Assembly (NCBI GenBank): GCA_051362555.1
Contig: CM120640.1
Coordinates: 10,044,001 to 10,108,000, forward strand
From: Lingula anatina
Taxonomy: Eukaryota; Animalia; Brachiopoda
Length of the DNA: 64,000 nt
Reading direction: 5' to 3'
Position numbers and translations under genes: made by a program. Shown here piece after piece: positions 11,941-61,392 of this stretch (its first letter is position 1; the number at the start of each line of letters is the position of its first letter). The notes beneath the pieces were generated by a model, which saw only the letters and a program-made list of their open reading frames with translations, made no database searches and was not told the origin of the DNA.

Positions 11941-12613
11941 TAGGAATTAATTTGGGATCCTGAAGCACGCTATTTAATTATCATTATTAATTTCTTGAAC
12001 TTAAATATGGTCCCAATGTTTCGCAAAGTTTTGCTTCAGTTCAGTGCTACTAGTACTGCCATTCTGAACTGAGTGATGTGTTGTGTAGGCCGGTTGTGTA
12101 GATGCTGCACCTATGGCAATGTAATGTAGATTAAATAACTATATGCAGAACACCCAACCACAGTGTCCAGTGACAACAAAGGAGCCTTGACTCTAGAAGA
12201 TTTTTGTGTTATTTTGTTTGGGGGGGTGGGGGGTGGGTGTTTGCATTTTCACTTTCTTTCTATTTATTTCATTTTGATTAAATTATTACTTTGAACGGAC
12301 CCTTTCAAACAATGAAATCTATCTTATATTTTAACAACTTACACAAGGTATTTATTTCTTTTGTGTGACATTTAATTGCCACACAAATTAACTGGCGTAT
12401 ATAACAATCTTCAAAAAATAGTTTGGTAGTAGTTATTCCAGTAATATGTACATGTATAGTACCCAGTTTACTGGTACTATAAATTAATTGCTATAAATTT
12501 TGATCATTTTAAGTTTTCAATAAAAAATTATATTTTTCTCATTCAGATATACATACATCATTATTTCTTTAAGGTGATCTTTTATGTGGGATCACATTGA
12601 TTAACAATCAAAC

Positions 12614-14333
12614 ATGACATTGCCAAAGAAGAAACTGGGAAATGGACTAAAAATGATAGCCAGTGTTTCCTTTGTGGAAAATGGATCTAAGACCATCTGT
12701 GATATATGGCTGATAGACTCCTATTATAGAGTGGTTTCAGCAGAAGACTTATACTGCCAACTGCAGAGCTGCCAGCATGAAAACTCCCTCTTTAACCCAT
12801 ACAATCAAAATATCTGTGATCAGGAAAATATAGAAAATGTTCAAGAAGGATCAAATAGTCTGTCACATTTAACATTGCAAAACTGTTATGACGATGAGGA
12901 CGAGGACCAAACTTGTGTTTCCAGCAACCGAATGAATACTGCTACATTACCTCAATTGCACAACAGGATATTGTCTCGAGTAAAAAACACACCGTCCATT
13001 AGTGAATTTTATGACATGTCTGTAAATGCCATAGTAGCAGCATGTTTGATACAGACATTAAAATTGTCTTCAGTCTTTTGTTCTAGGTTTATAAGATATA
13101 CAAGAAGAAAGATTCTAAGATTAGAAAAGTTAAGAAAAACAAAGAATGACTGTTTGATCTTGGAAATGCAGTTGCAGTGGCCAGAAAAAATTCCTATAGA
13201 CTTTGCATGGTAAATTACATTTCTCAAAACCTTTTTTGATTTGTAAAAATGTATCCAAAGTTCAAAATTGGTATTGTGAAATTAAATGTATGCATTTTTA
13301 TGTTAGGTATATTTAGGTTCTTGAAATAATAAGATGTTTTAATTTACAAAAATATTTGGTAATTAAACCTTTGATTTAAATGTACTTTTCTTATATTTAC
13401 ATTAGGTGCTATAGAGTAACAGACATGGTGGTTCAAAGGTTAATTTTAGATGAAGCTATGGCGTGGCTATCTACACTTGGTGGAGCATATTCTGCACTTG
13501 GAGAATACTTTCAGTTTCATGTATGTACACTGCATCAAGTGAAGCATGAATAACAAAATAAAGAAATTAGTGGGGTGCTGAATATCAGTAAGTTATAAAT
13601 TATTGTAATTTCAGATTAATATTATTTTAAAATATTCAAAATTATATAAAAGAAGCAGAATTTCTCTGGATGCTTGATTTTCACCATCACCTTTGATAAT
13701 TTTTACATCACTTTTTTTTAGGCACAGCAAGCTGGAAATGTATCCATGAAGCAGTTAAAAGTAGCCTTGAAAGTTGGAGATCCAATTTCTATAGCTAAAT
13801 GTAAAGTTTTCTATGCACAGAGTTTAGTCCAGCAAGGACATTGGAAATTGGCCAAGAAAATTATAAGGTACATTTAACACGATTTTATTGAGAAGAGGCT
13901 GTTGGATTTGCAGTAATTCATAGCAAAAGCTTGTAACTTTTCTCTTTCAACATGAACTGAATAGCATATCTTCAGACAGTAATTATAAAATGATTGGATA
14001 ATTTAATGTAAAAAGTTTTATTTTTAAATTTTTCATTGCTTTAAAAAGTAGCCAGCCATTTTTATTTATTTGTATACAAACATTTATCAAACCAAGTTTA
14101 TTTAATGATTTCTTGACTTAATGTTGTATGGTAATTTGGCATTCTGTAACACTATCTGAAATGTGTTTTTAAAGTTGATCTTAATTTTTTTCAGGGTTCA
14201 GTACCAGTTTGCAATCACCATGGGTAGAAGAGATAAAATACTAGTCTCCATGTGCCATGCATTATGGGGAAAGTTGCAATATCTAAAAAGACAAAGGAAA
14301 AGCACAAATAGTCAAATTGATCCTGAAAGATAA
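12614..14333 (+). CDS. DUF4807-like conserved uncharacterised protein (C. elegans F58A4.6-like), 4 coding exons
   Basis: Exons 12614-13209, 13406-13520, 13722-13867 and 14195-14333 splice in frame to give ...DFAW|CYRVTDMVVQRLILDEAMAWLSTLGGAYSALGEYFQFH|AQQAGNVSMKQLKVALKVGDPISIAKCKVFYAQSLVQQGHWKLAKKIIR|VQYQF...MCHALWGKLQYLKR...*. WLSTLGGAxSALG is recalled as the DUF4807 signature. AATAAA follows the stop (~14339). The start codon is uncertain (12614 or 12653). Confidence 0.75.
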
Positions 14334-14819
14334 TTAAAAATAAAACCTTTTTTTGTCATTTTTCTGTAGTTATTTTCAGACATTTCACATGAACTGAAGC
14401 TGCTTATGGGACATTAAAAATCTTGATTAGTGCTCAAGCATCTTTTAATACCAACTGATTTAAAAGAAAGTTCCAATTAAGGAATCTAAATCATGTGTTC
14501 TAGTACTATACCCCAGTACATGCACCCTTCAGTGGGCTACATGCAGAGATATATTGAAAGGTAAAGTGCAGCAGTTATCTACAGTTAATAGATCTTAATA
14601 CTGTTTTAAATATTGCACTGAATTCACGAAGAAAAATTGTTTTTAAAAATGCATTAAACAGCCTATTTTCCCTTTTTTTCCCACATGAAGATCTCATTTG
14701 AAAATTATGAATAAATTCTCTAAAAAGCAAATGGACTTTTTATTTTTTCATTTCATTAGACCTAAATATATTTTATTAATTATTATTTTGAAGTATACAT
14801 TCAACATCATTTTTGCCCA

Positions 14820-15148
14820 GTTACACGTGATTCATACAAAAACGGGCACTGGGCTATTTACAGTAGTCAGTTCTTGTTAAATGACATCCCTTCACGTTCT
14901 GGAGAGAGTATGAAACGCCGCATCTTGCAACGAAAAATATACGCTTTACTTTCCCCACCTTTAATGATTATGTGTTTTCGTATCGTCAAAACCGCAGCTA
15001 GAATATGACGACTCCCGATTGTGAACATAATCGCACCAAAATTAGCAAATGATGAGAAAGAGAAGTACCATTTGCCGCCGAAAACGAGACTCCTTTTGGA
15101 GTGTCGTGACTGCGCATGCTCATAGTACAAATCTCGATGGTAGACGAA
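14820..15148 (+). promoter_or_regulatory. Promoter and non-coding first exon of the EEP gene
   Basis: CpG-rich patch, NRF1-like TGCGCATGCT at 15111-15120, and strong donor AA|GTGAGT at 15148/15149. The next acceptor is TTTCAG at 15786. Confidence 0.55.
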
Positions 15149-15837
15149 GTGAGTGTTTCAGGATATTTTTTCCTATAAATGCATTTATCATTTGGGTTGT
15201 CTTTGGATTATAAGCTTATGATTGAGTTAGCATTATATTAATTGTGAATACCACCTTTTGCAATGAAAATTGATAAGCATACTTCCCAATTATTTCATTA
15301 CCGGCATCTTGCCTTGGAACTTGCAAAGTTTAACTTGCACAACTGCAGCGTAGGGTCTTCACTGTACATGCAGTAGGAGTCCCGTTGAGGTTTTACTCAC
15401 GTTGTGTTTGTATGAATTATCATTTAAATGGATATGAGTTTAACTGGTGGCCAGCATCGTCAGTTATCAGGTTATTGGATCTTAGCAAATTTTGGTTTTG
15501 GAACTAAAAATCTTATCATCTCAAGTTTAAAGTTGAACACAATTATCCTAGTTTCTTGAATGTTCACTATTTTTTTTTTCATTTTTTTTTTTTAATTTTC
15601 ATGTCAGCCCATGAACCAAACATTGTCATGATAGTTATAAGTTTTTGCCTCACTGCATGCAGAAAAAAAAGAAAAAAAAATCAGACCTATCACTAATTAC
15701 TCATGGATCAATTAAATTTCAAAATCTTAAAAAGTCATTGAAAAATGCTACTGGATATCTTCTACATTTTATTGTCTTTATTTCAGTGACAAATTTAAAG
15801 CTATTAACTTTTGGAGGCCTTATATAAACAACACAAC

Positions 15838-18800
15838 ATGCCCCGAGCAACACGAAGTGCACTACGTGCAGCAGAATCAGCAGCAGATTCTGCAAAAAGT
15901 ACAACCAAGAAACAAAGTCAGGAAGAACCTACAAAGGGTCAAACACAAAAAGGGTATGAAAATGATCTGGAAACAAATAATACAATTAAAATTTATTGAT
16001 AAACTAAAGGTGACTTCTTTACATTGAAAGTAAACAACTTAATTGTGTATTTTCAAATGAAAGGACCATCGTGAGGTTAACCCTCTTGCTGCAGTATTTT
16101 ATTTCTGAAAATAAGGAATGTTATTAATACACCAAGAGTTTCTGAGTGCGAAGCACGAGTAGATATCACACATACTTGCTATCAGAAGGTGTATATAATT
16201 TGAAACATAGCAGATTTGAAAAAGAAAAGACCCAGGCACTTTTGCTCTCAACATCTGCAGTTATATATAAACATATTTGTTGGTTATTTTCCAGAAGGGG
16301 TAGGGGCAGGTCAGCAGGTAAAGTCGATGCACCCAAAGAAGAAGAGATTCCTAAAGAACTTCCTGCCAGGGGTAGGAGGGGTGCCAGCAAGGAAACTCCT
16401 CCACCAGCAGAAGCTCCTGCAAGAGAAGGCAGAGGACGTAGAGGCAAAGCAACAGAACCAGGTATAGACAAATATTAAGGTTAAGTTCTCCTTGGAAATT
16501 ACACCTGAAGACTTTAATAGCAGTTTAAAGTTTTGATGTAGAGATGAGGGTAGATGAAATATATTCTTCATCAGTCAATCATTTAAATTATTATTTTTTA
16601 TTCACTATTATTGCCTAAATGAATAGCTTATTTTTAAGTATGTAGATGTCAGGAGTTAACATTGTTTGCCACTGAATTTGAATGTCAGGTAGCATTCGTG
16701 AGTTAATTGTGCTTTGTTAAATGGTCTTCCAGAGGAAGTTGTGGAATCTGGAGATGCTGCAGATACAACGAAGGTAGAATCACCATCAGGAAGAGGAACA
16801 AGGGGAAGAAAAGCAGTCAACACTGTCCCCTCTCCAGCTAAAACTGAAGTAAGTTTTGAGAAGAGACTGATACCTTCAGATTCGCTGCATCATTCATGGT
16901 GCATTATCAGTCCCCAACAATATCTTGTCATGACTGGTATATATTTATTTCCTTTTTAATTTATATTATTATTTTGACAGTGTTGACAGCTTTACAATTA
17001 GATTGTCTTACATTTTTAATCCTTGCAAAACTGCCAATTAATATTCTTTTGGTTTAGATGAACATCGTTTTTTTAAAGGTTAAGTCAAGATCAAAAGCCA
17101 GACAGAGCACACAGAATCAACAAGAACAGGAAGCACTTCAGGCTGAACCCATTGAATCTAGTCCCAGGGGTAGACAGAAGAAAGCCCAGACCCCAAAGCA
17201 GTCTCCCAAAGAGACATTAAAAAGTCCTACAAGGTCTAGGACTCGTGGCAAGGGTGCTATACCTGAACACCAGGAACCAGAACAGGAACCCATTCAGGAG
17301 GAGGTACCTGTTGAACCAAAACTAGCTAAGACTGATGCTCCAACAAAAGGAAAAATGACACCAAAAAAGACGTCCGCTGCAGAAGCTACAGTTGTAAGCA
17401 CTGATGTTGAGATGACAAGAGATGAAACAAAGGTCAAATCAGTGGAGCAAGAACCTCCAGTGGTGAAGGTGGATAAACAGCCACCAGTTCAGAAGGACCA
17501 GTCAGGTGCTTCTGCTGCCCCCCTATCAGCCTTATCCCCATCAGGGCACAAGAGAAAGTGGTCATATCCAGATGATGATCTTGGGATGAGTCCACCAAAG
17601 AAGAGGAGAGAAGTTGCAGATGAAAGCTCAGTCCCAGTGACAGCAAGTGCTGTGCAAGCTGCAGAACAAGCAGACAAGTCTGCAGATAATGAGCTGGGAG
17701 AATATGAGGTGATCCAGATGTCTGATGTGCCAGCTGCAGATAGCCAAGAGGTGGCAGCAGCAGTCCCCAAACTGTCTCAACCTGGTGTGGAGTCCATGGA
17801 AACGGAAGAAGCACCGGTCAATTTTACCTCTTCCCAGGGTGCCAGTGCTTCAGTTGTGTTACCACCTGTGAACCAAACTGTCCAAAAACAACCTTTGTCC
17901 CAGCCAGCGATGATAAATGGAAATAACAGTAATGAAAGTACGGTTGACCCACTCTTGAATAGGAACTTCATACCAAACCCACATTTACAGGGGCCAGTGG
18001 ATTCTTCCAAGAAGTTTTCTATTGTGTCATACAACATACTAGCTGAGTGTCATAGGAAAAGGGGAGATTACAGCTTCACCCCAGAGGAGTACTTAGACAT
18101 CAGTTACCGACACAAGAGGATGATGGAAGAATTGAAATATTTGGATGGAGATGTGTTGTGCCTTCAGGAGGTGGACCCTGATTACTACAGAGATATTTTA
18201 AGTAAAGAGTTACGCAGGTAAACTGAATTGCATATATTTGGATTAGTTGATTATTATTTTGAGTTGGTCACTTCATTAGAAGAAACTAACATTTTTGGCT
18301 AGATTTTTTAAATAGGATGGTTATGTAACAACTTAATGAGAATGATAAAAGATTATAATTTTAGTAATAAAAACGGTTTAAAATATGTTGTGAGCACAAT
18401 GTATAAAGTCTATTTTCATTCTCTTGTCATAATTATCCAGAAAAAGGTAATTGTAATTGGATAAAGTTTTTTTAATGAATTTGCAGCTTAGGCTATGAAG
18501 GTGTCTTTAAGAAGAGAAATAGTCCCCATTATAATGAGGGTGAAGCCACATTTTGGAGAACAAGTCGTTTTACCTTGGTGGATAACACACCTCTGTTGCT
18601 TCAGGACATCCTACACAAGGTGACCCTATTTGCTGTTTAACTAAGTATAAACTTATATTGGTAATGGAGTATGCTAGTTATGGAGGTGCTAAATGACCTG
18701 CTTTGTTTCTTACATGGTGTTTAAATTTGAATGACACAACTGAATTTCATAATAGGCAGTTTTTGTAAAAAAAAATTGCTAACATGATTGGGAACCCTTT

Positions 18801-21800
18801 GAAAAAAATCTTTAATACCCTGATTTCATTGTTTTAGGATGTGGATGCCCTTGAGCAGTCTGATGCAGACAAGGCAGCTATAAGAAAGTACCTTGAGGGT
18901 CCCATTGTAATGCTGATCACCAGGCTAAGGTGTTGCACCACTGGAACAGTACTCACTGTGGGCAATGTCCATGTCATATGGGGCAAACTTAAACTGACTG
19001 ACATACAGTGTATGCAGGTACTTAGGAAGATAATATTCTCTTTCTAACTCTTTCAGTGAGCATTCTTGTAGTTAGTAGGAATTTCTACAATTTTCATATA
19101 CAGGCACTTATCTCTGGACACTGAATCATCACTTGAACACTTTCCATCTCTATTTTTTAATTCAGACTCTTGATTTATTTATTTATTGTTCTCTTAGGCT
19201 GCTGCAGCAGTGAGAGAAGTTGTGAATAAGGCTGGCGGTGCTCACAATCCTCACATTGTCTGTGGGGATTTTAACTCTTTCCCAGATTCTTGTGCTTACC
19301 AACTCCTCCAGGATGGTTACCTGAGTGACAATTCCATCAATCAGCTACAAGAGGTGACCAATGTGGAGCTGTCTGACAACAGTGTAGGTGTTTATGTATA
19401 GAATATTTGGTTTTGATATGCTGTATCATGGTTATAAATGAGCTAATTCAATGTCTTCTCATTGAGTGCATCCAGATAGCTGGACACCACTTCTAGTTGG
19501 AATATGAAGTGTTTTTAATATTAAAATAATTTTTTCTTTTAAAGAATTTAAAAAACATGTCCTGGATGACCCTTGGATGCACAGATTTTTAGTTGTATCC
19601 TTCCTTCTCTCTAAAGTGATGTAAATTGATAATGTTTGTATTTCAGAAAGCTGCTTTAGTGAATTTGCTTTGGAAAGGATTTCAACACACTTCTCCCCAT
19701 TTGAAGAGTGCATATGCTACTGTACAGGTAACTGGCATCGATTCTTCATTATTGAAATATATTTAAAATGATTGATCTTAAACTAAAGAACTTTGTCTAT
19801 CAATTTTAATGAATATTAGGAATTAGAATTGTGAAAATGTAAGAATATCTGAAAGTGTACATATCTGTTAAGCAAATGTTTAAATGTGCATGATTATTTT
19901 AACTCTGTTACAAATTTTTAGTGATTGTCTTTGGTGATTTAATACTCCTTTTGTTAACTTAAAATTTGCTTCTGGAAGAAATGTTTTCTCAATACCCAGT
20001 ATTAGCTTTGCTTTGCATTATGTCATCCTCTTTTAGATAGAGATCAAAGTATGATGTTATATTACCTTAATTGTGTTTTCACTCATGTACTTCATTGTGT
20101 CTTTTCATTCTTTTTCTTTTACACACAAATAAGTTCCTGGTGAATTTCTGGTGCTTAATCACCATAACCGTTTGCCACTTGTCACTTAAAAATATTAATT
20201 TAAATGAAGAATATCTTTCAATTACCTATAGCTATCTTGCCTCACGTGTGGTTGTTGGGCTTGCACATAGACTATGTTTTATGGGGAGAGTTAAGGAAAT
20301 GAGATTTTTGGCAATGTTTTTTGTTGTTTGCAGTTTGAAATGTTTTCATGTTTTAGGAGCTTCATGTGCCATCTAAATTGTATGTCTAATACGAGCAACA
20401 GAATATGGAGCTGGAATCTCGGAATGCTTAAGCATTAAAACTCTTTCCTCCCTTTCTCTGCTCTTTTAGATGCTTATATAGAAAGGAGTTTGCTTGCATA
20501 ATTTGCACCAACTGGGCAATTTTATTATCCTTTTAGGGGAAAGAGCCAATTTCCCGCTGCAGTGCTTCAATGCGTCAACATTATCATTCTGACTACTTTT
20601 GGTACAGCACCAGCTTGCAGACTACGGGCATCCTAGAGGTGCTCAACCACACCAATGCCCCCTATCCAACCAAAATTCTCCCCTCAGATCACATGTCTAT
20701 AAAGGCTGAATTTTGTTTCTTGTAATGGTATGTTTTCTTCTCTTTTTTTCCTGAAAAATATAATGCAATCATACATTCATACTGGATATGGCTTTCTCTA
20801 GTTAGAGTCTGTTAGCAAATTACTCTGTGTTAAATTGATTTGTGATGCAAAGAATTTGTTTAGTTAGGGTAATTTTCACACTGGTATAAGTTAGAAATTT
20901 AGATCTTCCCTTTCTCAGATAAATAGAAAAGCACACTTTTGAAATAATGTGTAGACTAAATGAAGCAAAGAATGCATTGATCTTTATAGATAAACTTTAA
21001 CAGATGTTCTAGAGTTATGTTAGGCTTTTTATTGCAGGAAATAACCATTGGTGACCTCCAGTGATGTCCACTGATTCAGAAAAAATAAAACAATAGTTGA
21101 GAAAACACTTGGTTTTTGCTTTTCTATTTAATATACCTCTTAGGTATACTTCAGCTCCACCCTAGTACTGCTATGTAATTCTTTTCTATTAATCTAGGGA
21201 CAAGAGCCCTTAGTGTCCAGCTCAAACAACCTATTCACCCTCTGTGTGGATTATATATGGGGGAGTGTGAATGACCAACTGAAACTGACAGGTGTGACCG
21301 AAGTGGCAAAGATTGACCACCACATACCAACAGTCATCTTTCCATCAGATCACATTTCTCTCCAAACTGAGTTTGCATTTGCTTAAGTTACGTGGCTGAA
21401 ATTGACAAATGAATTTACAGCCTACTTAAAAAGATACCAATGCAAGGTTAACAGTGGCATCATAGATGGTTCTTTGGTTGGATAACATTGAAAAAAAATT
21501 TCCCTGTGAATTATTCCTCTTAACTGTTTTTAAAAGGTGATAGATGTTTTTCTAGGAAGTTATTTTTTTGTTGATGTCCTATTTTTCATTATATAAACAT
21601 ACACTGCTTTAAAATATTGATGATAAATTACCTGTTTGTGGGTATTTTGCATTGTAAATAATGCATTTGTAATGTATAGGACTTGGTGCTTCCCCATCAG
21701 TTTTTACAGTTGTAAAATGATTTTATAGGGATGTACAAAAATTGAGTCACTTGGAAAATTATTTTGTTTCGAAGTAGATGTAATATAGAGAGAAAATGTG

Positions 21801-22283
21801 GAACTAAAAAGTATGCAGTTGGATTTCTATTTACTTATTTTTATTTTTTAGAAAAAAATTCTAGAGCAGTTGCCTTCTGGGCGAAAACAGTAGGGCCTTG
21901 TTAGTCCTGAACACAACAGATAAGATGCTGATCCAAATATCACTTCATTACACTCCAGCTTACAGCAATGCATGATCACTATCATTGTTTTTTATGTTTT
22001 TCACTTTCAGGGTCTAGGAAGTTCATAGTTAGAATATTTTTGTTTCTGTCTAACTCTTCTGTGATGGTGTTATTTTTAATCAAATTAGAATAAAGAACCA
22101 ACGAGGACAACCTTCAAAAACTGCTACGACTATATTTGGGGCAGCTTTAACGATCAACTTACACTATTAGGAGTAATCAAAGAAGCAAACATTGAAAGCC
22201 GTATACCCAGTGCTGTTTTCCCCTCAGATCATACTTCAATCAAAGCTGAATTTATGCTTTTGGTAAATAATAGTCAATGCTGA
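15838..22283 (+). CDS. CCR4/Angel/Nocturnin/PDE12-type EEP (exonuclease-endonuclease-phosphatase) protein with long disordered N-terminus and three alternative last exons
   Basis: Common exons 15838-15953, 16295-16461, 16733-16848, 17079-18217, 18487-18619, 18838-19017, 19198-19383, 19647-19727. Motifs in order: FSIVSYNILA, DVLCLQEVD, EGEATFWR, VGNVHVIW, IVCGDFNS, LKSAY. The DY(I/F) and PSDH motifs lie in the alternative last exons. No LRR (CNOT6-type) domain is seen. Confidence 0.88.
20537..20725 (+). CDS. EEP gene alternative last exon A (62 aa)
   Basis: Acceptor TTATCCTTTTAG, phase 0. Encodes GKEPISRCSASMRQHYHSDYFWYSTSLQTTGILEVLNHTNAPYPTKILPSDHMSIKAEFCFL*. AATAAA at 21084-21089. Confidence 0.85.
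   Translation, partial: GKEPISRCSASMRQHYHSDYFWYSTSLQTTGILEVLNHTNAPYPTKILPSDHMSIKAEFCFL
21198..21386 (+). CDS. EEP gene alternative last exon B (62 aa)
   Basis: Acceptor CTTTTCTATTAATCTAG, phase 0. Encodes GQEPLVSSSNNLFTLCVDYIWGSVNDQLKLTGVTEVAKIDHHIPTVIFPSDHISLQTEFAFA*. Confidence 0.87.
   Translation, partial: GQEPLVSSSNNLFTLCVDYIWGSVNDQLKLTGVTEVAKIDHHIPTVIFPSDHISLQTEFAFA
22089..22283 (+). CDS. EEP gene alternative last exon C (64 aa)
   Basis: Acceptor TTTTTAATCAAATTAG, phase 0. Encodes NKEPTRTTFKNCYDYIWGSFNDQLTLLGVIKEANIESRIPSAVFPSDHTSIKAEFMLLVNNSQC*. Downstream AATAAA at 23198, 23749 and others. Confidence 0.83.
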   Translation, partial: NKEPTRTTFKNCYDYIWGSFNDQLTLLGVIKEANIESRIPSAVFPSDHTSIKAEFMLLVNNSQC

Positions 22284-25200
22284 TATCCTGGCCATAGTAT
22301 TTGCAAAGCTCAGGTAGTTGCTACAATGAAGTAGAACTGAAAGTTAATTGAGCCTAAGTTGACATATTTTATCATTTATTTGAGAAGCAATTTTTATTTT
22401 ATGAAATGTAATAATTATACAGGTTTTGCTATAAATTGAACAATGCCCAAACCAACAAATACAGACTATTGTATCACCATGCTCATTTTTTAATGGTAAA
22501 TTTTTGCAGCTTATATTATGTGGTATAAATGGGTCTATATTCTTACAGGATTATTAGCACATTGTATTTTGTGAAATGACAGGTATGTGTCACATACGTA
22601 TTGGCTTGGTCTGAATAGCAGATCTTGATTGTATAGGTAAAAGGGTTTATTATAAGGTTAACTTTTATGGGACAAGGCATATGTGTATATTTAAACTTTT
22701 GTTAAAAATTGTTTTGAGAGTTTATTGACTTGGGATGATTTATAGACTGTTATTGATGTATATTCATCTGCTATATAGCATATTACACATCTATGATTTA
22801 TAATTGTAATTGACCAGTGAATGGTAACAAGACAAGTTTCACTTGGAAATTACGTACATTCATTTTTATGCATCAATTTTCATTTCTGTTTTGTGGTATT
22901 GCTTTCATGTTTCACTAGTTTTACCATCCTATGATCCTGGTGTAGTTTTTTCTCAACACTTAAACAAATTTTATATTTCGAATTAAAAGTAGTTTGGGCA
23001 AATTTAAGGATATGTAGATTTCAGTGTAGTATGATAAAAATTATCAATTTGTGAGGCTTTTATTGCTTTTGATTGTTATTTTTAGTCAGATGACCAATGT
23101 AATTATTACATTTGAAGATGCAATGTTATGACTTAACAATAATAGTGCAGGTATTAAAGGATTTGGCTTGAGAAATAAGCTTTCATAGATGTTAAAGAAT
23201 AAATGAGATCAGTAAAACTGATACATTGAATGGAGGTAATAGGTAAACTGATTTAGAATTTATAAAATGTTTTAAAATACCATTGTTACATTGTTGAGGA
23301 TTTCTTAAAGACAGCGATTTTTTATTTCTGTGGGTGCACATGCTAACATCAAGGGCAAGTCTTGTATTTTAGAAAATAAATACTTATTTAAAGCAGTTGT
23401 AGAGGTTAAATTGTCTTTTAGTATTTTCTTCAATATGCACATGGTCTCAGCTCCATGACTTGGGTCAACTTGAAAGTTGCTGTCACATGGTCTATTCCTG
23501 ACCCTGACTTCAACTTTGTAAACAAAATCGCTTCTTAAAAATATTCTCCTGGTTTAGAAATTTCCGCAGTGTTTTTATTTTGGAATATGCAGTTTCAAGA
23601 TGGTTTAATTAGAATAAAAACTTGGTCAGTTCCATAGTAAAGTGATACTTGAAGAAAAAGATTTAGATATACATAAAAGTTTTTAAAGGAAAGATCTTAA
23701 CTAGTTTTTGCAAAGTAGTTTGGTTTTACTGTATTTATGTTTATACTAAATAAAGGCAAAGTATTTGTGATTTGACAGAAGCAATGTTCTTTTCTGCTTT
23801 ACTTAGTTAATAAATTGTGAGGATACTTGTTTAATCAGACCTTGTTCCTTTTCCATTGGGGGCTGGGGGTGTTGACTCAAACTGGTGCTCGGAGAGACAA
23901 AGGAGTATTGCATCTGAGAATGCCTTGTTTTTAAACATTTTATTTCATATCAAGCTCACTACATCACAGTAATTTGTACAATATGAATAAGGTCACTAAA
24001 TCATCCATAAGATCACAAATAAATCTCATATTCTCTTCTCTTAAATCAGCAATTAATCAATGAACTAATAAAGTGACCAAAAGATAAGTCTTTTTAATTA
24101 ACTTTCAAAAAGTTAAGATCAGTTAATGTCATTGAATACTCTACACGACTAAGCTAATTACAATAAGAACAGCCTTTTCTTAGATAACATAATTTGCTTA
24201 ATGTTGCACTGATTAATTATTTTTGGATACAAAGAAAGTTTTGAAATTGGAAATCTCAAATAAACTGCTTGCTTTTGAATATATACAAAGCCATAACAAC
24301 AACAGGAAAATATACATAAATCAAAATCTTAGCAAAATCTTTCATAACTGCTCAGGATTACTGACATTAAGCATTTAGTTTGTCTTCCTCTATATGCCCA
24401 AAGTATTTTGTCTTTTTAAATATAATAATGTACATTAGAATGGAACATGGATTCCCTATAACTAGGGTAGGGTAAATAATAACTTTTTTTTTTTGGAAAA
24501 CTCTAGAGGAACAGGTGTTTTTAGAGGAAAATGGATCAAAAAATCCAATGAGAAATTTAGGCTACGAGTATTATTTAGTTCGGTAATTTCACCATTCATG
24601 GAAACGCATACAACAGCAATTGTAACTATATACATGTATATACCTATATAGAATAGGGTTGGGCGAATCTCAAATGTTTTAAATGACAGGTGTTTGCAGA
24701 AATTGATGATAAACATACATCTGACACCTTTTTTTCATAACAACAATCTAGGTTTGTAAAATGACTTTTTTTTAAATGGCAGACAAAATGCCCTAACAAG
24801 AGTTTGGACATAGGCAATTAAAGGACCCATAGTTTGTTTAATGTCTTTTCTTATGTTTTCAGGACCATAAAATGTATTTTTCTTAGGTTAGCACTGTCAT
24901 TTTCACATTTTAAATGGAAAATGATTACCTTACCTTGTGTAAGGCTGATAGATCACTGTCAAGCTTAATGAAAGATCCAGAATGTAAATCAATCAAATGA
25001 GGAGTGGTAAGATCTCTTAAGTTCTCCTGGATGTGAATTACAAGGAAAAATCAGAATTATCCTAACCTCAAGCAACCACAAGGTGAATATCTTTAAATTA
25101 TAAAAAAACGATGGATGATAAATCTTAAATGTATAAATGTATGAAGCAGGAAACAATCCTTGTCATACACTGAGACCAGCAAAGAAGTTGCCAAGGAAAT

Positions 25201-26640: not shown

Positions 26641-29600
26641 TCAATAACGATTATAAGCAGGAAAACAACTATTACAGTACCCCCTATTCCTAGAATTTCC
26701 ATAGTTACTGCACCCTGCACCTTTGCATTCCCCTGTTGATGAGCGAATGGCAGTGGCATGGCGCAGCATATCATCTTCAAAGGTCATCTGACCTGCAGGT
26801 CGCCTCGATACAGAATTTTCTCTGCAGACCTGAGATGTCGATCTTCTTGGCATCACTTTTGGCTGGCGCAGATGCTCCACCTCATATGTGTTATAGGAGG
26901 GTAACGAATTGGCTCTGTCTTCAAGGAATAATGAAGATGAAAGCACATCAAAGGAGCGACGAGTGAGCATGTAGTGCTCATGACAATAACCCTCTTCTGC
27001 TGGATCACCAAATCGGTCACAATATTGAACGTTGCAATGTTTAGCTGCACCCGGAACAGGTGGTCTAGTAGCTGGTAGAGTGGGTATTTCAACTAAGTGA
27101 AGCAACAAAAGAAAATAACCCATAAATGATAATTTATATATTGTTTTAATGCAGCTACAGTGGAGATCCCCCTTCCTAAGCAAATGGGTTCTAACTTTGA
27201 AATGACACAATCATGCACTTCCATTGAATAAAAGCAACAGCTTTTCCATAACTTAATACAGATGTACACCATGTTGCAGTCAGAGACACAGCTGTCATTA
27301 ACTTCAAGAACAAATTTGACTAATTCTAATTGATCATCAAACCAAAGAACTGACACTTTAAACAAATAAAATCCCTTAAGAATATTAACACATGCAATCT
27401 AAACAGAAGATGGGAATTTTAAGACAATGAAAGTTCTGTGAACTGTTTCTCACTACAGAGACATGGGTCAAATAGACTAGTATTAATGCATACCTTCATC
27501 TCTAGCAATCTTCTCCATTAAGCATTTGTGGCAATATCCATTTTGATTAGGAGTACCAAAGAAGTTACAGCCTGGAGTAATACACTTCAAATGTAGAGCT
27601 TCATAATCTGGAGCTGAACAGAAAAAACAATACTTTAGGCAGATCAACATTTAAAATTAAAATAAAAATGTTAAAATAATTTGTTTACAGGCATTCAATC
27701 AGTTTCCCCAAAACATCATATTAATTCATTTAATCTTTAAAAACCTTTACCAGATTGAAAAGCTAGGCCATACTGATACTGTTTTCTGGGAGTTCAACTT
27801 TTCTACAGGGAATAACCTACCAGAAAATAAAATCAAAACCAAAATTTATGATGTAAGTCAGCAATTTAAAAAGAACTTAATCAAAATACCTCTGCTTTCT
27901 TCTGGAATATGGATTTCTCCTGACTGCAGACGATAAGCCTCTGCCATGCAAATTCTATTGAAGCAGTCCTGGCACAGTCCATTGGTGTTATCATAACCAA
28001 AGTTGCTGCAATTCTCAGTGGTGCACTTCTGTTGGGACATCTCATGTCCATTGGGTATCACTTTAGATGTTAGTGAGGTGAACTGTGGCTGCTCATAGTC
28101 TGACAGAGGGGAACTGTGGACTGCAGGTTCTTTGGAGAACTTCATTTGTGAAATTCGTGGGCGCTGATCCTGGGCTGAGGCTTCAATAAATGGCTGTTTC
28201 CCGTGCTTTTTATCTTTAGAGCAACTGAAGCAGTAGATGGTTTCACGAAGGCATACTCCACAACAGCCTTGGGTGGCACACACATCTCTCTGAGTGGAGT
28301 CTAGTCTTCTAGAGGAATCAGGTTTGTGTTGAGGGGGTTGTTGTTGTTGTGTTTTCTTAGATCCATGAGTCAAACGGTAGAATCTGACATAGCACTCTGT
28401 GCATAACCCACTAGTTGATTCATGGCCAATTTTATTACAATCTGATGTGACACATTTGTAATACCTGCGGGCTTTGGACCTTTCCTCAGGATTTGACGCT
28501 GGCAACTTGGCAAGGATCTGCATGGAAGTCAAGTCTTCATCATCATCATCTTCATTACCTGCTGCCTGCGAGGCAACATATTCCCTGGCCCCATGGTTTA
28601 CATAACACTGGGAGCAATAGCCTTTCGTCTGTGGATTGCCTCCATACTCACACCCAATGGTTCTACATTGCTGAACATCATTAAGCATAGACTGTTGATA
28701 CTGCTGTGTAACAGGCTGATCATCAAAACCTTTGTTGGCAGAGCCCGATTTTTCTACAACTGGATAAGAAACTTGCTTGTTTTGTGCCTCAACCTTCTTC
28801 TTGTGACATTGCGAGCACAGGCCCTCTAACTGATGGCTCCCATTGAACTGACAACCTGGAGTAAGGCACATACCCGACGTAAAACTTTTCACATTGGCTG
28901 GTGCTTGCATTTTACCTGTTCCCTTAAAGGGCGACTTCTGTGGAACAGCATCTTTGAAACACTGGGAGCAATAACCATTGCACTGGCTGCTTCCAGTAAA
29001 TAGACATCCCGGTGTCTTGCATAATCCAGTGGTGACTGGTAATGGGTTTTCTGCAATGCTGCCACCCTTGGTGGCGCTTTGTTTTGGTGTACCAACATAT
29101 TTTACAAAACATCCTGTGCAAAGACCATCATAGTGAATGGTATCTCCAGGGTTCCTGCACCCAGGTGTTTTACAAAGTGAGGTCGTGGCTGGAGAGGGTA
29201 TTCCAGTAGCTTGTCCAGCATATTCATGACGTGGGTCTTCATAAGCACCTCCAGAATACATAGTGGATGAAGCACTCTTCTTCGTTACAGATTCATGTAG
29301 ACGTCTCAAGCGGGTCTCATCTTCTTCGAAATGCTTGGAGCACATCTGCCTCTGTTCAAGACGGCCATAAAGTTGGCATCCTGGTTGGATACATTTCTTC
29401 CCATCTTTAGAAGCAGTTCTTGACTGCTCTCCTGTACTATCCGAACCCTTCCTCTGCTTCTGTATCTTTTCTGCACACTCTCTGCAATATGGATGAGTCT
29501 TCACTGATGCCATGTATGCACAGCCTGGTGTCTGGCAATGGTCTCCTGTCACAGAAGGAATATAGGACTTTGGTGGCTCCATACTACTGATTGGGACCAC

Positions 29601-31863
29601 CTCTGGGCTGGCAGAGTAAAGATCTTCTGGCTCCTCCTCTCTTGCCTCAAAAATGGGGGCTGATGGTCTGATGTCATCATAATAAGGTCTCATCAATACA
29701 GTGTCTTCTGTTTTGAAGTCATAGCCAGGGCTTGTGAACCCAGCCGGTTGGTTTGGTTGATGTGGCTGTTTGGTGACACTTTTTCTCTGTTCAAACAATG
29801 CTTCTTCTTTAGATTTTTGAAACTTACTTTCACAAGCTCTGATAAAGTCAGGGATGAGATTAGCATCATCGTCCAATTGCTTTGGTTGCAGCTTTGCAGA
29901 CAGAACAATGTTTGTTCCAGTAGCTGTGGTATATGGCACCTCTATGACTTTCATGTAGTCTTGCATTATCTCATACACCTTTCTTTCTTCTTCTTGGAGC
30001 AAAAAGTGTACAGTCAGGGGTTCATACTCATGAGTAACTAATGGAACAGCATGCAATGAACTTAAAGCTTTTGCATCTTCATGAGGGGCATTTTCAGCAC
30101 TGGCTAGAGGTGTAAAATGATAACCATCAAAAGCAAGCACTATGGGAGATTTTTCACAATCTTGAGGCTTCCATAACAGAGGTAAATATATTCCCCCAAA
30201 ATAGTTGGGGCCTACAGTAACTTCTTGGATATTTCTAATAACAGAGTCACATAAAATAATAATTGGCCGCCGGAGAATATTTGCAAGAACAAAGATATGG
30301 GCTTCTTCTAGTGATTCATAAGGCAGTTCATCAGCACACCTGTTTGGTTTTTTTACATCTTTTGCAATACGTACAACTGTGTCCCATTCTCTCTCCCACT
30401 CCTGTAATGACAAGGAAATAATTTTACTTTTTTTTAAAACATAAATAAATTGACAAAGCTTTTAATTTATTTTCATTAAAACTGCAAAACTTTGTCTACT
30501 GATACAAAGATGATAACATTAAACTATTGTATAAATATGAAAAAATGAAAACCAATAACTGTAAAAATGTTCACTTATCTAAATTAATGGAAGTTCGTCT
30601 GACTTATATTTACCCCAGTGTTATATCTGAAATTTCCTGGTATGTCCTCGTTCTGTGCAGCTCTTTCCCTCATCCATCTTTGCTTGAACTTCCCTGTACC
30701 TTCATCATCTACTAAAGTGACGTATATTAACCGTCTCAAGAACAATGTCTCATCCTGAACTCCCCACATACCAAGAGACACTGCATGAAGCAGGCAGTTC
30801 CCATCACCTGAAATATCATTCAGGTTTTTATGTAAAATGTCATATACTACAGGGGCCATTCAGAATAGAAGATCTGAGTATCAAATGGTCATAGGCTCAA
30901 ATATGGCAGACCCTACATGAAAGGAAGACTGCTTAATCATTAAATGGTCTCTCCAACTTCACCACGCCTCCCCACGCGTCTGGTCAATTGGCGCCAAGAT
31001 TTAATGGTAGTGACCATTACAGAATTAAATGGTCTTCCTTTCATGTAGGGTCCACTATATTTGATCCTTGGACCAGTTGATATTCGGATCTTTTATTCTG
31101 AATGGCCCCATATACTGAAGGATTAAAAGCTTTGGCTTTGCATACTCAAGGGGGAAGCTGGAACAGTGGTGACTGTGATAATTATGATTATGAAGCTAAG
31201 TATGCTTGCCTTAGCTATACTCTTTTCACTGACACTAACTTGATAACCAATCCCTTGACAAGTATTGATAAGGAAAACTTTTTACACATGATATATGCAG
31301 ACATTTGTTCAAAGTCACAACTTATCATTATGGCACTACTGTAATACCAGGGGCTCATAATTCATGTTGTTAATTCATGGCCAGAAATTTATCAGTTTAC
31401 CAGAATCCTTTTTTTTTTTTTTGACAATTATGGATTCCCTATGTCCTCCCAGAATTGTTATATTTGCTGATAACATGCATCAAACAAATCTACATATTTT
31501 ATTATATATAAGTTGAAAAATCTGTTAAGTAAACACATCATATATCTACCAACCTGTTGTAGAAACAGCATACAATGGCTTGCAAGTACGACACCAGTTC
31601 AGAATCTTAGCCTTTTCCAATGCGTCTTGCATCCCCTTATCTAGCAAACAATTCTTCAAGAAGCCTGCAAAGTCAGCTGGATACATTTCCAGTGGTGGCA
31701 GCATTATTGTAAACCAAGACATCAGGTTGAAAAATGGAATATTAGGTGGATTCTGTGGAACAACAACATCACTTTGGACCTTGTTCCATATTATTTTCAT
31801 TTTCTCTGGATTAACACTGGAGAGTGTTGGTTGAGGACTGGGCACCCTTTTCTTATTTTCCAT
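26641..31863 (-). CDS. TNFAIP3: A20/TNFAIP3-like OTU deubiquitinase with about 12 A20-type zinc fingers
   Basis: Exons 31863-31554, 30807-30614, 30401-27890, 27613-27494 and 27092-26641 join in frame. OTU catalytic motifs: TTG|DGNCLLHAVSLGMWG, YESLEEAHIFVLANILRRPII, GGIYLPL, PIVLAFDGYHFTPL. These are followed by repeated Cx4Cx10-12Cx2(C/H) fingers. A multi-finger tail favours A20 over OTUD7/Cezanne. Non-coding 5' exon donors at 34428 and 35031. Confidence 0.88.
30851..31110. mobile_element. Palindromic MITE (~260 bp) in an A20 intron
   Basis: Imperfect inverted arms of ~100 bp: GGGGCCATTCAGAATAGAAGATCTGAGTATCAA...GACCCTACATGAAAGGAAGAC versus GTCTTCCTTTCATGTAGGGTC...TTGATATTCGGATCTTTTATTCTGAATGGCCCC. 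TA lies at or near both flanks. Confidence 0.8.
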
Positions 31864-32294
31864 CCTGATGCTATTTTCGTTTTATTTTCTGTTGTTATCT
31901 TCTTTTAGTATGTTTCTAGAAAAAAAATTATGAAACTATTAACCTCAGTAAACCAGGGCTCTACATTAACTCTTTCAGCCACTTGACACTGTGGGGAAAG
32001 TGGCTGGCGAAATGTACTTGTCTGAGCTGGAAATTCACTTGCCCATACTTTATTTATCAAAAGATTAACAAAACGGTACCCACTATTTTTTTTTTCATTT
32101 CAATCATTTATGCTGAATATTTGTACATTTTATTTTGGTGTTTGTGTTACTATTCTTCTATTCCACCAAATTACTAACTATATTGTTTCTCAATGTATAT
32201 TTTATCTTTATTCTTTGTATAGTAGTAGTCTAGTGACCACTTCCCTTTCTCTAATTCTTCCTTATCACTCTTTTTAGGTAGAGTAAAACCAAAC

Positions 32295-33355
32295 TTTAGC
32301 AAACGTTTGATAGTGTGCACAGGGAGACTCTTTGGAAGTCATATGGGATCCCTTGCAAGATTATCACACTTATCAAACTGTTTTATCATAATTCTGAGTG
32401 CAGCGTTATTACTGACAACAGCACCATTTCAGAACCATTTCCAGTGAAGTCTGGATATATCCTCTCCCCAATATTATTCCTTGGAACATCTATTGGATAA
32501 TGTGACAGACAACATCAGACAAGGCCAGAGGCATACACTGGACCCTTTTCTTACACCTTGAGGATATAGACTTTGCAGATGACCTGGCAGTCCTCTATTC
32601 AAGAGGTGATCATCTACAGGAGAAAACTGACACACTAGACAAATTTTTCAGCCAAATTGGACTTTCATTATCATCAATACCTCAAAGACCAAAGTCATGC
32701 CAATCAACTTGAGCAATCCTCTACCAATAACTGTCCATGGAAAAGTGCTTGACCCTATAGATGAATTCACCTATCTAGGTAGTCTCATTAGCAAGCATAA
32801 TGGAGCTAGGAGAGACATTCAATCAAGGTTAGGCAAGGCACGAGTGGCCTTTGCGTGGCTTCAACCCATCTGGAAATCCAGCACAGCTTGTAGACCAAGA
32901 TACGACTGTACAGCAGTAATGTGTTATCTGTCCTCCTTTACAGATCCATGTGTCGGCTTATGGTGAAGACAGACATGGATTATATCAGTGCTTTCTACAG
33001 CGAATGCCTGCGGAAGATATGCTGCATTTTTTTACTTCAAAAGATATCCAACAAAGATCTATGTCACAGTACGGGCTCCAACAACATTGTACTTGAGATA
33101 AAAGGCCGTAGTCTGAATTACCTTGGTCATGTCCTCAGGATGGAACAGGGGAGAATCCCCCAAACATCGATCTGGTGGACCCCTGTCAGGAGGCATAACC
33201 CTGGTGACCTAAAACAACTTGTAGAAGAACAGTCCAGAGCAAGTTCCAGGTGATGAGTTTGGCCTGCTTTAAAGCAGCATAAGACTGAACAGAATGGCAT
33301 CACCATGTCGCAGCCCTATTTCCCAACAGGGAAGATGTGGATAAGTGAAGTGAAA
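32295..33355 (+). mobile_element. 5'-truncated, degenerate RTE-like non-LTR retrotransposon (reverse transcriptase fragment), antisense in an A20 intron
   Basis: Frameshifted RT motifs: FDSVHRETLWK, FPVKSG..ILSPILF, LEDIDFADDLAVL, FTYLGSLIS, DIQSRLGKARVAF, CLRKICCIF, YLGHVLRM. Short TAAG/TGAAG-type tail near 33340-33355. Confidence 0.85.
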
Positions 33356-35237: not shown

Positions 35238-36584
35238 GTAACACAAGAACATTTTAATGGTTTTTTCCTTTAACCGCGTTTGTTTTAATGATATTCTTAA
35301 TTTGTGTTTTTCTCTCATTAAGTTTGTATTACCTGCTTCTGTCAAGTTTTGAAATTTAGCTAGCGAATAATTAACATGTTTACAAGTTACCCGATATATC
35401 CTTGTCACATTCATGATTCAGTAAAGTCGAACACCTTAAAGAAGGCAAGAAGGTACTAAAGGGTCATGATCATCCATTTTTATCATTTTCACAAGCCTAC
35501 AAACCGTATGCTGGGGAGAAAGGGGTTAATACCAGCACTTTTGAAAGATAATACAAATTATGATCCAAATTGATATGTCAAAGCTCATCATTTTAGTTTT
35601 TCACTTATATGTACTGTACTAGTAGTGCTCTCAGAAAGGGGGGGTCTGAAAAATTGTACCCTTTTCAGACGTCTGAAAATGATGCTAAAAATGGATTACC
35701 CCTTTTTACGGTATGCCCCCAGAAGTATGAGTCTTTTATTTACATTATTTTTCTAAATTCATTTGTTGTTCAGCATGTGACATGACAACCCTGCAAATAC
35801 AGAAAAATACCATCATGTATATAATGAAATGTAAGGGAAATATGCAAGCTTTCACAAACTAGCATTTATGTTTGGCACTACCAATGCGATAAGAGTGGCT
35901 TATAGTTCACATACAGGGATGAAATTTTTCCAACTATCGGCAGATTTCCTACTTTATGGATGCCAAAAATATCATTGGTCTTACTCTACCAGTAAACTCC
36001 CCCCCCCCCTTGACCTCATGTCATATTTTTCTACTTAATCACTAATCACTGAATGGCAGTCTCACCCCTGTAAGTAAAATGGTCTATTAAGCTAAAGAGC
36101 TTTTATAATTCCCAAGAGTACAATCTAAAGCAAGTTCGATCTCTGCCAACAGTCTATGGTTGCCTTTGATTAAAGCACAGAAGTACTTCTATGATTAAAG
36201 GGACTCTGCACATGTTTGAAAATCCCCCACAGTCATATTTTTATCCTGTTAAACTATTTGTATTTCACATAACATGACACAGGGCCACAATGCCAAAAAC
36301 CCTGCCATTTTCTTGTGTAAAAACAAGGCAATGCATGTGAAGGCACATATCATTTTATTTGACTGGCCAGTCATTTAGAACTGAACAACTAATTTGAACA
36401 TGGAATAAGATATAGCCCTAGTGCAAGGATGGGTTAAGCAGTGATTTGTGAGAAGGATGATAAATTGGACTTTATCTCAGGAAAATTTGTTTTTGCTGCA
36501 TGGAGAACACCTTAAAGTGTTATCAAGTTTTCATGGACTATAACCATTGAAACCCCATATATGTATTTTGCAGGTTATGGTAAG

Positions 36585-60660: not shown

Positions 60661-61392
60661 CTAATTTCGCTGTTTTCCTGGGGACAAGTCACCAGCCGTT
60701 TCCGTAGCAGTGGTGCAGTGCTGGCAGGCACACGGACATGGCGGGATGTGGACCGCAGGCAGACGACCAACGGTGAAATTCATTGCAAGAGCTGGTGGAA
60801 AAGTTGCTCGAGGCTGAAATAATTCCCTAGATACTGGCTGACTGCCCGAGTCCACTGGTGATGGCATCAAAACTATACTTGGTGGGCTTCTGGGCGACAT
60901 TTTTTGGAAAGAGTGCGAACGCTGTTGCATCTCACACACCAATTTCTTCATTTCTTCTAATGACCGCGTCAACGTGATGATGTAATTTTTGGCTAAGAGA
61001 AGAGTGGCCATTTTGGAAAGTTTTTTGACTGACGGCCCATGTCCGTATGGCATAACTTGTCGTAGCCCATCCAACGCTGAATTGATATCATGCATTCTTT
61101 GGCGTTCTCGCATGTTAATTCGCAAACGAAGCACATCTCTTTCGTCAGAATTAATGTCTTTTGAGCGCTTCTCCTGTCGTCTGTTCAGTCGAATTTTCCC
61201 TGGCACAGAAGAACGCTTAGCTGTAAAATTGTCTGTAATACAATCATTTTGCCCATCATCTGAAATGTCACAATTGTCAGTTTCTAAGTCTTCGCAGGCA
61301 TCATCTTCATAGGCACTGTCAACTACAGGCAACGCTCTTGAATCATTGCCGTGGTCAGCTTGATCTGAATCCCTGTTCTCGAGCGTGGTCAT
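60661..61392 (-). CDS. Olig: Olig-class bHLH transcription factor (Olig/bHLHe22-23 family), intronless
   Basis: bHLH LRLRINMRERQRMHDINSALDGLRQVMPYGHGPSVKKLSKMATLLLAKNYIITL matches the Olig loop VMPYxHGPSVxKLSK. Cys motif PCPCACQHC near the C-terminus, as in Olig/Beta3 proteins. Likely start ATG 61392; an upstream in-frame start at 61485 is possible. Confidence 0.88.
   Translation of the reverse strand: MTTLENRDSDQADHGNDSRALPVVDSAYEDDACEDLETDNCDISDDGQNDCITDNFTAKRSSVPGKIRLNRRQEKRSKDINSDERDVLRLRINMRERQRMHDINSALDGLRQVMPYGHGPSVKKLSKMATLLLAKNYIITLTRSLEEMKKLVCEMQQRSHSFQKMSPRSPPSIVLMPSPVDSGSQPVSRELFQPRATFPPALAMNFTVGRLPAVHIPPCPCACQHCTTATETAGDLSPGKQRN

What the first reader, a model, noticed from the sequence alone, without database searches (positions are those of the whole stretch)
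20537..22283. Three tandem alternative last exons each supply a different half of a nuclease/phosphatase active site
Seen: after the last common exon (phase-0 donor at 19727) come three separate phase-0 exons at 20537, 21198 and 22089. Each has a proper AG acceptor, an intact 62-64 aa frame, the same skeleton (x(K/Q)EP...DY(I/F)W...G(I/V)...P...PSDH.S...EF) and its own stop. They are heavily diverged at DNA level, yet all keep the catalytic Asp (DY) and His (SDH), which argues for old duplication under purifying selection rather than decay. Established: in CCR4/CNOT6, PDE12, Angel and Nocturnin, the segment between EP and DY(I/F) lines the substrate pocket, and these paralogues act on very different substrates (poly(A), 2-5A, 2',3'-cyclic phosphate, NADP(H)). 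Here that loop is the most variable part: ISRCSASMRQHYHS, LVSSSNNLFTLCV, and the shorter TRTTFKNCY. The Phe five residues before the Asp, base-stacking in CNOT6L as I recall, is kept in B and C but is Gln in A. Inference: alternative splicing/polyadenylation yields three enzymes of different specificity from one gene. I know of no description of this for the family. All three exons are absent from the ORF track.
Basis: partly seen in the sequence, partly recalled or inferred. Interest (0 to 1): 0.9.

Follow-up and report, generated by a model that had tools for sequence, protein, structure and literature searches.

The report
Three swappable active-site end exons
A lamp-shell (Lingula) gene for an unstudied RNA/nucleotide-trimming-type enzyme splices its shared front part onto any one of three anciently duplicated end exons that keep the same catalytic residues but differ in a loop predicted to line the substrate pocket, which likely tunes what the enzyme cuts; a ribbon worm's version of the gene is annotated with two such ends at the same point.

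Summary
Three homologous phase-0 exons (A 20537, B 21198, C 22089) follow the donor at 19727. RNA reads join that donor to all three: 60, 24 and 22 reads over 8 runs. The gene is from Lingula anatina, and RefSeq already predicts the three proteins (X3, X2, X1). Synonymous sites are saturated while family-conserved residues are kept, so the copies are old and under selection.

Corrections: (1) The exons appear to share one 3' end. A splices on to B's acceptor 2 nt after its stop, and B reads through C, so the choice is between acceptors, not poly(A) sites. (2) Each exon supplies the same two catalytic residues; only the loops differ. (3) The gene is not CCR4 or PDE12 but a separate lophotrochozoan clade, in which that Phe is not conserved. 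C's Phe aligns to another position.

New: the nemertean Tubulanus has two homologous C-termini at the same boundary, and a bryozoan's end groups with exon B, hinting at a very old duplication (weak support). Different substrates remain untested. This is a known kind of event, for which my searches found no description in this family.

The parts
15137..15148 (+). 3' end of an upstream 5' exon; its ATG opens a 4-codon uORF that stops at the first codon of the next exon
   Evidence: Loose read ends before 15787 match 15138-15148; sequence read directly
15787..15953 (+). First coding exon, ATG at 15838
   Evidence: junction reads; the 769-aa database protein P0004 starts here
16295..16848 (+). Coding exons 16295-16461 and 16733-16848, low-complexity N-terminal region
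17079..18217 (+). Large exon: predicted disordered linker, then start of the EEP domain (SYNIL and CLQEV motifs; Asn195 and Glu240 equivalents)
18487..19727 (+). Shared EEP exons 18487-18619, 18838-19017, 19198-19383, 19647-19727 (NxHxxW and GDFN motifs); phase-0 donor GT at 19728
   Evidence: every junction read in RNA
20537..20727 (+). Exon A: 62 codons, TAA 20723-25, then a GT donor at 20728 that splices to exon B's acceptor; the most used end in pooled reads
   Evidence: 60 junction reads in 6 of 8 runs; onward joint 8, 11 and 3 reads in X1, X2, X7, not listed in the other five runs; RefSeq X3
21198..21386 (+). Exon B coding part: 62 codons, TAA; the most family-typical loop (13 residues); also serves as 3' UTR of A transcripts
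   Evidence: 24 junction reads in 6 of 8 runs; RefSeq X2
21387..22088 (+). B-to-C interval: 3' UTR in A and B transcripts, intron in C transcripts
   Evidence: Covered by sense-strand reads at depth about 7-14 in X1 and X2; the A-B intron has no depth in X3 bins 20786-21013
22089..22283 (+). Exon C coding part: 64 codons, TGA; loop shortened to 9 residues
   Evidence: 22 junction reads in 4 of 8 runs; RefSeq X1
22284..23400 (+). Likely shared 3' UTR; AATAAA at 23198 and 23375; end position approximate
   Evidence: Sense-strand depth falls away in bin 23350-23683 in all four runs

Best explanation
One Lingula gene for an uncharacterised CCR4/PDE12-like hydrolase splices a shared donor to one of three anciently duplicated exons, giving three proteins that keep the same five catalytic residues but carry different loops predicted to line the substrate pocket, and so likely differ in preference or rate on related RNA or nucleotide ends. 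Shown: the three junctions, the onward splice from A to B, old divergence with purifying selection, and an annotated two-ended orthologue in a nemertean with the same boundary. Inferred: the three acceptors compete for the donor at 19727 and the transcripts end at a common poly(A) region near 23400. A behaves as a stop-carrying cassette whose junction lies 2 nt past the stop, too close to trigger nonsense-mediated decay under the 50-55 nt rule (general knowledge). Predicted: each exon completes the EEP fold and delivers the Asp489/His529 pair to the shared Asn/Glu/Asp metal site. Untested: catalysis and substrate. My bet is Mg-dependent trimming or dephosphorylation of RNA/oligoadenylate 3' ends rather than NADP(H), with the loops shifting base preference and kinetics within that one chemistry.
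For: Junction reads 60/24/22 (43/22/15 distinct starts). pS 0.76-0.91 (saturated) against pN 0.30-0.45, pN below pS in 1000 of 1000 bootstraps for each pair, and no similarity left in flanking introns. Of 20 conserved last-exon columns A keeps 17, B 15, C 16, within the 14-20 range of 37 subfamily members. AlphaFold models of A and C complete the domain; best Foldseek hit CNOT6L, E about 6e-26. The loop holds the adenine contact in CNOT6L (Phe484, PMC10590902 passage) and Nocturnin (Arg367, PMC6542800 passage). The shared part has the Asn412 equivalent (GDFN) and a Trp three residues after the NxH His, as CCR4 and some PDE12 proteins do; PMC6542800 says a deadenylase Trp clashes with NADPH, and that this is the same Trp is my recall. 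Isoform ratios differ between samples (permutation p 0.008 on reads, 0.037 on starts within study P1; B share P1 vs P3 p 0.0015 on starts). Tubulanus X1/X2 share 921 residues and then diverge at the same boundary into two homologous ends.
Against: No activity data. The loop is very variable across the whole subfamily (12-14 residues in 36 of 37; Asp-5 is one of 11 residues), so loop differences may be tolerated drift. A has Arg where 37 of 37 relatives have Thr/Ser, and Ser where 37 of 37 have Val/Leu; its loop is modelled at only pLDDT 67, so A could be weak or inactive. C has Tyr at the Val/Leu position, had 0 of 13 last-exon junction reads in study P3 (p 0.07 on reads, 0.19 on starts), and carries a segregating 1-nt indel near its end. 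The A-to-B joint was not listed in X3 despite 21 A junction reads, so A's 3' end is unresolved there. Insect laccase-2 splice isoforms act on the same seven substrates with efficiencies within about 4.5-fold (PMC3313952 Table 3). B was not folded. Tissues and stages of the runs are unknown to me.
Confidence: 0.58

Rival explanations
1. Splicing is an activity switch: B (and perhaps C) is the working enzyme, while the abundant isoform A is a weak, dead or binding-only form that keeps the Asp and His for structure.
For: A alone loses the Thr/Ser at Pro+3 and the Val/Leu before the Asp, both 37 of 37 in relatives; low loop confidence; longest branch of the three.
Against: A keeps 17 of 20 conserved columns and all catalytic residues; a one-residue register shift would put its Ser at Pro+3; dead enzymes usually lose catalytic residues over saturating time (general knowledge).
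Confidence: 0.15
2. The three enzymes are near-equivalent; the copies are kept for regulation (3' UTRs of about 2.2, 2.0 and 1.1 kb, stage or tissue control, stability), not for substrate choice.
For: Loop variability is normal in single-ended relatives; UTR lengths follow from the read map; ratios vary by sample; laccase-2 precedent.
Against: UTR control would not need three coding copies 39-50% identical; each copy has its own loop length (14, 13, 9); B's distinctive residues recur in a bryozoan.
Confidence: 0.13
3. One reading: the isoforms act on different substrate classes (poly(A), 2-5A, 2',3'-cyclic phosphate, NADP(H)).
For: The swapped loop carries base contacts in CNOT6L and Nocturnin; the tail profile scores best on Nocturnin (53 bits) while the whole domain scores best on PDE12 (170 bits).
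Against: Other determinants (the deadenylase Trp, the alpha5-beta5 motif of Nocturnin, Asn412) lie outside the swapped exon by my alignment and recall, so all three share them; no exon resembles the 17-residue Nocturnin loop; the Phe is not a subfamily feature.
Confidence: 0.12
4. Two of the exons are decaying pseudo-exons used through splicing noise.
For: C is unseen in P3 and has an indel polymorphism.
Against: All three junctions are used, the rarest in 21% of pooled reads; silent sites are saturated yet frames and motifs are intact; the indel falls after the catalytic His, and that allele ends at the same register as A and B.
Confidence: 0.02

Closest known systems
C-terminal tandem exon duplication-derived substitutions (77 of 236 human events; PMC8373072, passages read)
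   Same: Tandem homologous coding exons used alternatively, swapping a homologous C-terminus; typically ancient; three or more copies occur.
   Different: That paper attributes C-terminal swaps to alternative poly(A) use; here the reads point to competing acceptors and a common 3' end. The words 'catalytic' and 'active site' had 0 hits in its main text; its supplementary gene list was not read.
CNOT6L/CCR4 and PDE12 EEP hydrolases
   Same: Same fold and five catalytic residues; best structural and sequence hits.
   Different: About 22-27% identity; no LRR or PDE12 N-terminal domain; separate clade; long low-complexity N-terminus; Phe484 position not conserved.
Nocturnin and Angel2
   Same: Same fold; Nocturnin's Arg367 sits in the loop swapped here.
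   Different: Different loop length; lower whole-domain scores (114 and 123 bits against 170). Animal Nocturnin and Angel were not in my tree.
Insect laccase-2 A/B splice isoforms
   Same: Alternatively spliced enzyme isoforms; that they come from duplicated terminal exons is my recall.
   Different: Assayed, with overlapping substrates and modest rate differences (Table 3 of PMC3313952; the primary paper was not held).
Human MASP1 (MASP-1/MASP-3) and Anopheles delta GST alternative ends
   Same: One gene, alternative catalytic or substrate-binding C-termini; MASP1 is named in PMC8373072.
   Different: They swap a whole domain; here a 62-residue slice inside one domain is swapped. Their substrate differences are recalled, not read.

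Membership tests
Tandem exon duplication-derived C-terminal substitution | Homologous exons in tandem in one gene | tested here: met
Tandem exon duplication-derived C-terminal substitution | Each exon is spliced alternatively to the same upstream exon | tested here: met
   three junctions from 19727
Tandem exon duplication-derived C-terminal substitution | Protein isoforms are made | not testable with these tools
   No proteomics; RefSeq entries are predictions
Alternative last exons chosen by alternative polyadenylation | Each exon has its own poly(A) site and 3' UTR | tested here: not met
   A splices on to B in 3 of 8 runs; continuous depth from B through C to about 23400; X3 unresolved; short reads only
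EEP superfamily, CCR4-like group | PF03372 domain above the curated cut-off | tested here: met
   43.2 bits against 24.5 for isoform B, 41 for isoform A
EEP superfamily, CCR4-like group | Five catalytic residues (Asn, Glu, Asp, Asp, His) | tested here: met
   N227, E272, D416 shared; Asp and His in each exon
EEP superfamily, CCR4-like group | Mg-dependent phosphoester hydrolysis | not testable with these tools
   No assay
CCR4/CNOT6 deadenylase | Leucine-rich repeat domain | tested here: not met
   Only PF03372 in the 769-aa protein
CCR4/CNOT6 deadenylase | Groups with CCR4 in a domain tree | tested here: not met
   own clade of 31 rows, SH-aLRT 99, quick search
PDE12 | PF21171 N-terminal domain and grouping with PDE12 | tested here: not met
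   named PDE12 proteins including Mytilus carry PF21171
Nocturnin | NADP(H) pocket (Ala instead of Trp, Arg290/Arg367, alpha5-beta5 motif) | tested here: inconclusive
   Trp present in the shared part and loop unlike Nocturnin's; position of the Ala recalled; no Nocturnin in the tree
Angel | Grouping with animal Angel proteins and cyclic-phosphatase determinants | not tested
   Only plant CCR4 homologues were in the tree; Angel2 scored 123 bits

The most novel reading that the evidence does not exclude
An uncharacterised lophotrochozoan EEP hydrolase subfamily has carried a swappable pocket exon since before brachiopods, bryozoans and nemerteans split (over 500 million years), and splicing uses it to give one gene several nucleotide or RNA-end substrates. 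It would be a natural domain-swap experiment on the open question of what sets specificity among CCR4, PDE12, Angel and Nocturnin.
Probability: 0.15. Interest if true: 0.8.

Novelty: new member of a known kind. Interest (0 to 1): 0.5.

Why it matters
Enzymes of the CCR4/PDE12/Angel/Nocturnin group share a nearly identical catalytic centre yet act on very different substrates, and the determinants are only partly known (PMC6158716, PMC6542800 passages). Here three natural proteins are identical except for the last 62 residues, which hold the catalytic Asp-His pair and the pocket loop, so one small assay panel would measure what that loop contributes. The gene also marks a widespread invertebrate EEP clade with no known function, now mis-named after CCR4 or PDE12 in databases, and the same exon is duplicated in at least one other phylum.

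Tried and rejected
No genome was held, so neither other Lingula EEP genes nor relatives' DNA could be searched; per-exon dN/dS across species was not possible. A fourth exon copy was sought and not found. Pfam misses the single exons (0 of 3). Isoforms with two homologous ends were sought among 248 of 279 proteins with the boundary in view: only Lingula and Tubulanus; Littorina X2 leaves at the same boundary into an unrelated tail. Trees of 66 columns could not tell shared from independent origin for Tubulanus (5 AU tests, p 0.11-0.31). The excess of Watersipora-B identity (52%) over its 41% background is not significant (p 0.11). P0154 dropped out of the common-region tree through an extraction failure. 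The regex table mis-parsed several rows; counts come from the alignments. The joint 15954>16296 (TA..GA) is taken as an allele or alignment effect. The bacterial promoter scan and PMC4195677 gave nothing relevant. Earlier-findings look-ups returned nothing. Paper searches listed no description of alternative ends in this family or of this subfamily; only open-licence papers are searched and no supplements were read.
Full report
Check of the observation. The window shows a plus-strand gene with an unbroken 706-codon frame from ATG 15838 over eight exons to a phase-0 GT donor after 19727. Three AG-preceded frames follow: A 20537-20725 (62 aa), B 21198-21386 (62 aa), C 22089-22283 (64 aa). They are 40% (A-B), 39% (A-C) and 50% (B-C) identical, with 16 invariant columns. 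A profile of relatives without Lingula finds exactly these three in six frames of the window.

Identity. The protein matches Lingula anatina RefSeq entries. Isoforms X1, X2 and X3 end in C, B and A, and a 769-aa database protein has my start and ends in A. So the three proteins are already predicted, though under a misleading CCR4 name.

Expression. Eight of nine offered RNA runs were laid. Reads joining 19727 to A, B, C: X1 19/2/2, X2 15/8/14, X3 21/4/4, X4 0/0/0, X5 2/0/2, X7 2/6/0, X8 1/3/0, X9 0/1/0; total 60/24/22, or 43/22/15 distinct starts. Ratios differ within study P1 (permutation p 0.008 on reads, 0.037 on starts) and B is commoner in P3 (p 0.0015 on starts). P3 reads are more distant from the window (14 of 271 at 99% or more in X7), so this may be a population difference, a tissue difference or mapping bias.

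How the choice is made. An unexpected joint runs from 20727, 2 nt after A's stop, to B's acceptor (GT..AG; 8, 11 and 3 reads in X1, X2, X7). In X1 depth stays flat to the end of A (15.8 then 14.0). Sense-strand depth is continuous from B through the B-C interval and C, and falls near 23400 behind AATAAA at 23375. I infer three acceptors competing for one donor, with a common 3' end and 3' UTRs of about 2.2, 2.0 and 1.1 kb. Against this: the joint was not listed in five runs, including X3 with 21 A reads, where depth drops towards A's end (the tool warns that dips are not findings). Alternative polyadenylation is therefore not supported as the main route, but long reads are needed.

Selection and age. 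Between copies pS is 0.76-0.91 (saturated) and pN 0.30-0.45 (dN 0.38-0.68); pN was below pS in 1000 of 1000 bootstraps per pair; flanking introns show no similarity. Of 20 columns conserved in at least 75% of 37 subfamily members, A keeps 17, B 15, C 16 (members 14-20). A 1-nt deletion at 22251 segregates in P3 (4 of 10, 6 of 10, 10 of 11 reads; absent in P1). It lies after the catalytic His, and that allele ends four residues after the last Glu, as A and B do, with Phe at the conserved column; the window's longer tail is probably the derived state.

Family. The closest relatives are mollusc and other lophotrochozoan proteins at 43-52% identity. In a domain tree of 74 rows they form a clade of 31 (SH-aLRT 99) inside a wider group of 49 that includes echinoderm, cnidarian and amphioxus proteins, apart from CCR4, PDE12 and plant homologues (quick search, midpoint root, no animal Angel or Nocturnin). 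No LRR or PDE12 N-terminal domain is found. AlphaFold models of C and A complete the EEP fold; 10-residue blocks over the loop score 82-89 in C and 81-67 in A; Foldseek ranks CNOT6L first for both. B was not folded.

What the exon supplies. CNOT6L's catalytic set is Asn195, Glu240, Asp410, Asp489, His529, with Asn412 and Phe484 contacting adenine (PMC10590902, passages). The first three and the Asn412 equivalent are in shared exons; each alternative exon brings the last Asp and His plus the loop. In Nocturnin the adenine lies between Arg290 and Arg367 (PMC6542800, passages), and Arg367 is in the same loop. So the loop is a real pocket element. B has it. C lacks four loop residues and its Phe aligns to Pro+5, where 28 of 37 members have Tyr/Phe. 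One oyster protein has the same 9-residue loop (P0153). A departs most: Arg at Pro+3 (Thr/Ser in 37 of 37) and Ser before the Asp (Val/Leu in 37 of 37). A Trp three residues after the NxH His is shared by all isoforms (39 of 53 matched members have it); the paper says a deadenylase Trp excludes NADPH, and that it is this Trp is my recall.

Other species. The Tubulanus polymorphus orthologue has RefSeq isoforms X1 and X2, identical for 921 residues and then split at the same boundary into two homologous ends 38-40% alike; these are predictions, and I saw no DNA or reads for them. No such pair appeared in the mollusc clusters opened. The Asp-to-SDH spacing is 32 or less in only 7 of 67 rows: A, B, C, Tubulanus X2, Lineus X2, the bryozoan Watersipora and unnamed P0154. 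Watersipora's end groups with B (98/84 under LG+G4, 94/82 under a mixture model) and shares four rare residues with B alone, against four shared by B and C alone. Holding A, B, C together was rejected at p 0.019 and 0.044, holding B and C together was not (0.093, 0.13). With about a dozen AU tests, 66 columns and a long A branch, this is a hint only; without Watersipora A+B+C was not rejected (p 0.53). Brachiopods and bryozoans are both lophophorates with a record over 500 million years (abstract starts in the listing).

Mechanism, best reading (0.58). Shown: three spliced ends, onward splice from A, selection. Inferred: acceptor competition and a shared 3' end. Predicted: three folded enzymes. 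Untested: activity and substrate; I expect differences of preference and rate on RNA or oligoadenylate ends rather than wholly different chemistry. Rivals: A as a weak or dead regulator (0.15), regulatory redundancy (0.13), distinct substrate classes (0.12), decay (0.02).

Comparison and novelty. The event type is known: 77 human C-terminal substitutions come from tandem exon duplication (PMC8373072, passages). Laccase-2 isoforms show that such variants can differ only modestly (PMC3313952, Table 3). PMC6158716 (passages) states that specificity determinants in this family are incompletely understood. Searches (listings only) found no account of alternative ends in this family or of this subfamily; subscription papers and supplements were not seen. 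Verdict: real, a new member of a known kind, interest 0.5. It would rise to about 0.8 if the array proves shared across phyla and the substrates differ.

Noticed in passing
window 15137-15148 joined to 15787-15789: A 4-codon upstream ORF is created across the first intron, 49 nt before the main ATG; it could damp translation.
   Followed up: partly
window 22251: A 1-nt indel polymorphism in exon C; the allele in study P3 ends at the same register as exons A and B.
   Followed up: yes
window 16817: A 3-nt insertion allele in about half of the reads of X1 and X2, in frame, in the low-complexity region.
   Followed up: no
window about 23700-25000, minus strand: An opposite-strand transcript ends close to this gene's 3' end, strong in run X4; probably the long 3' UTR of the OTU/A20 zinc-finger gene at 26644-31881.
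   Followed up: partly
window 11516 (minus) and 12605-14560 (plus): Two further genes lie head to head just upstream; no Pfam match for the pieces tested.
   Followed up: no
window 36500-43340 (+), 46406-47266 (-), 60664-61539 (-): An amidase gene, a Hairy-Orange gene and a single-frame bHLH gene; ordinary neighbours.
   Followed up: no
window about 3200-5000 and 39300-41500: Two similar copies of a repeat or transposon-like stretch, judged from near-identical translations; a reverse-transcriptase-like remnant at 32631-33250 by my recall of such sequences (no Pfam hit).
   Followed up: no
proteins P0010/P0019, P0012/P0017, P0016: Gastropods seem to hold a second whole-gene copy with a different loop (Batillaria, Haliotis), a parallel route to loop diversity; Littorina X2 leaves at the same exon boundary into an unrelated tail.
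   Followed up: partly
RefSeq XP_023932186-188: Three accessions encode protein A, which suggests several transcript routes downstream or upstream of exon A.
   Followed up: no
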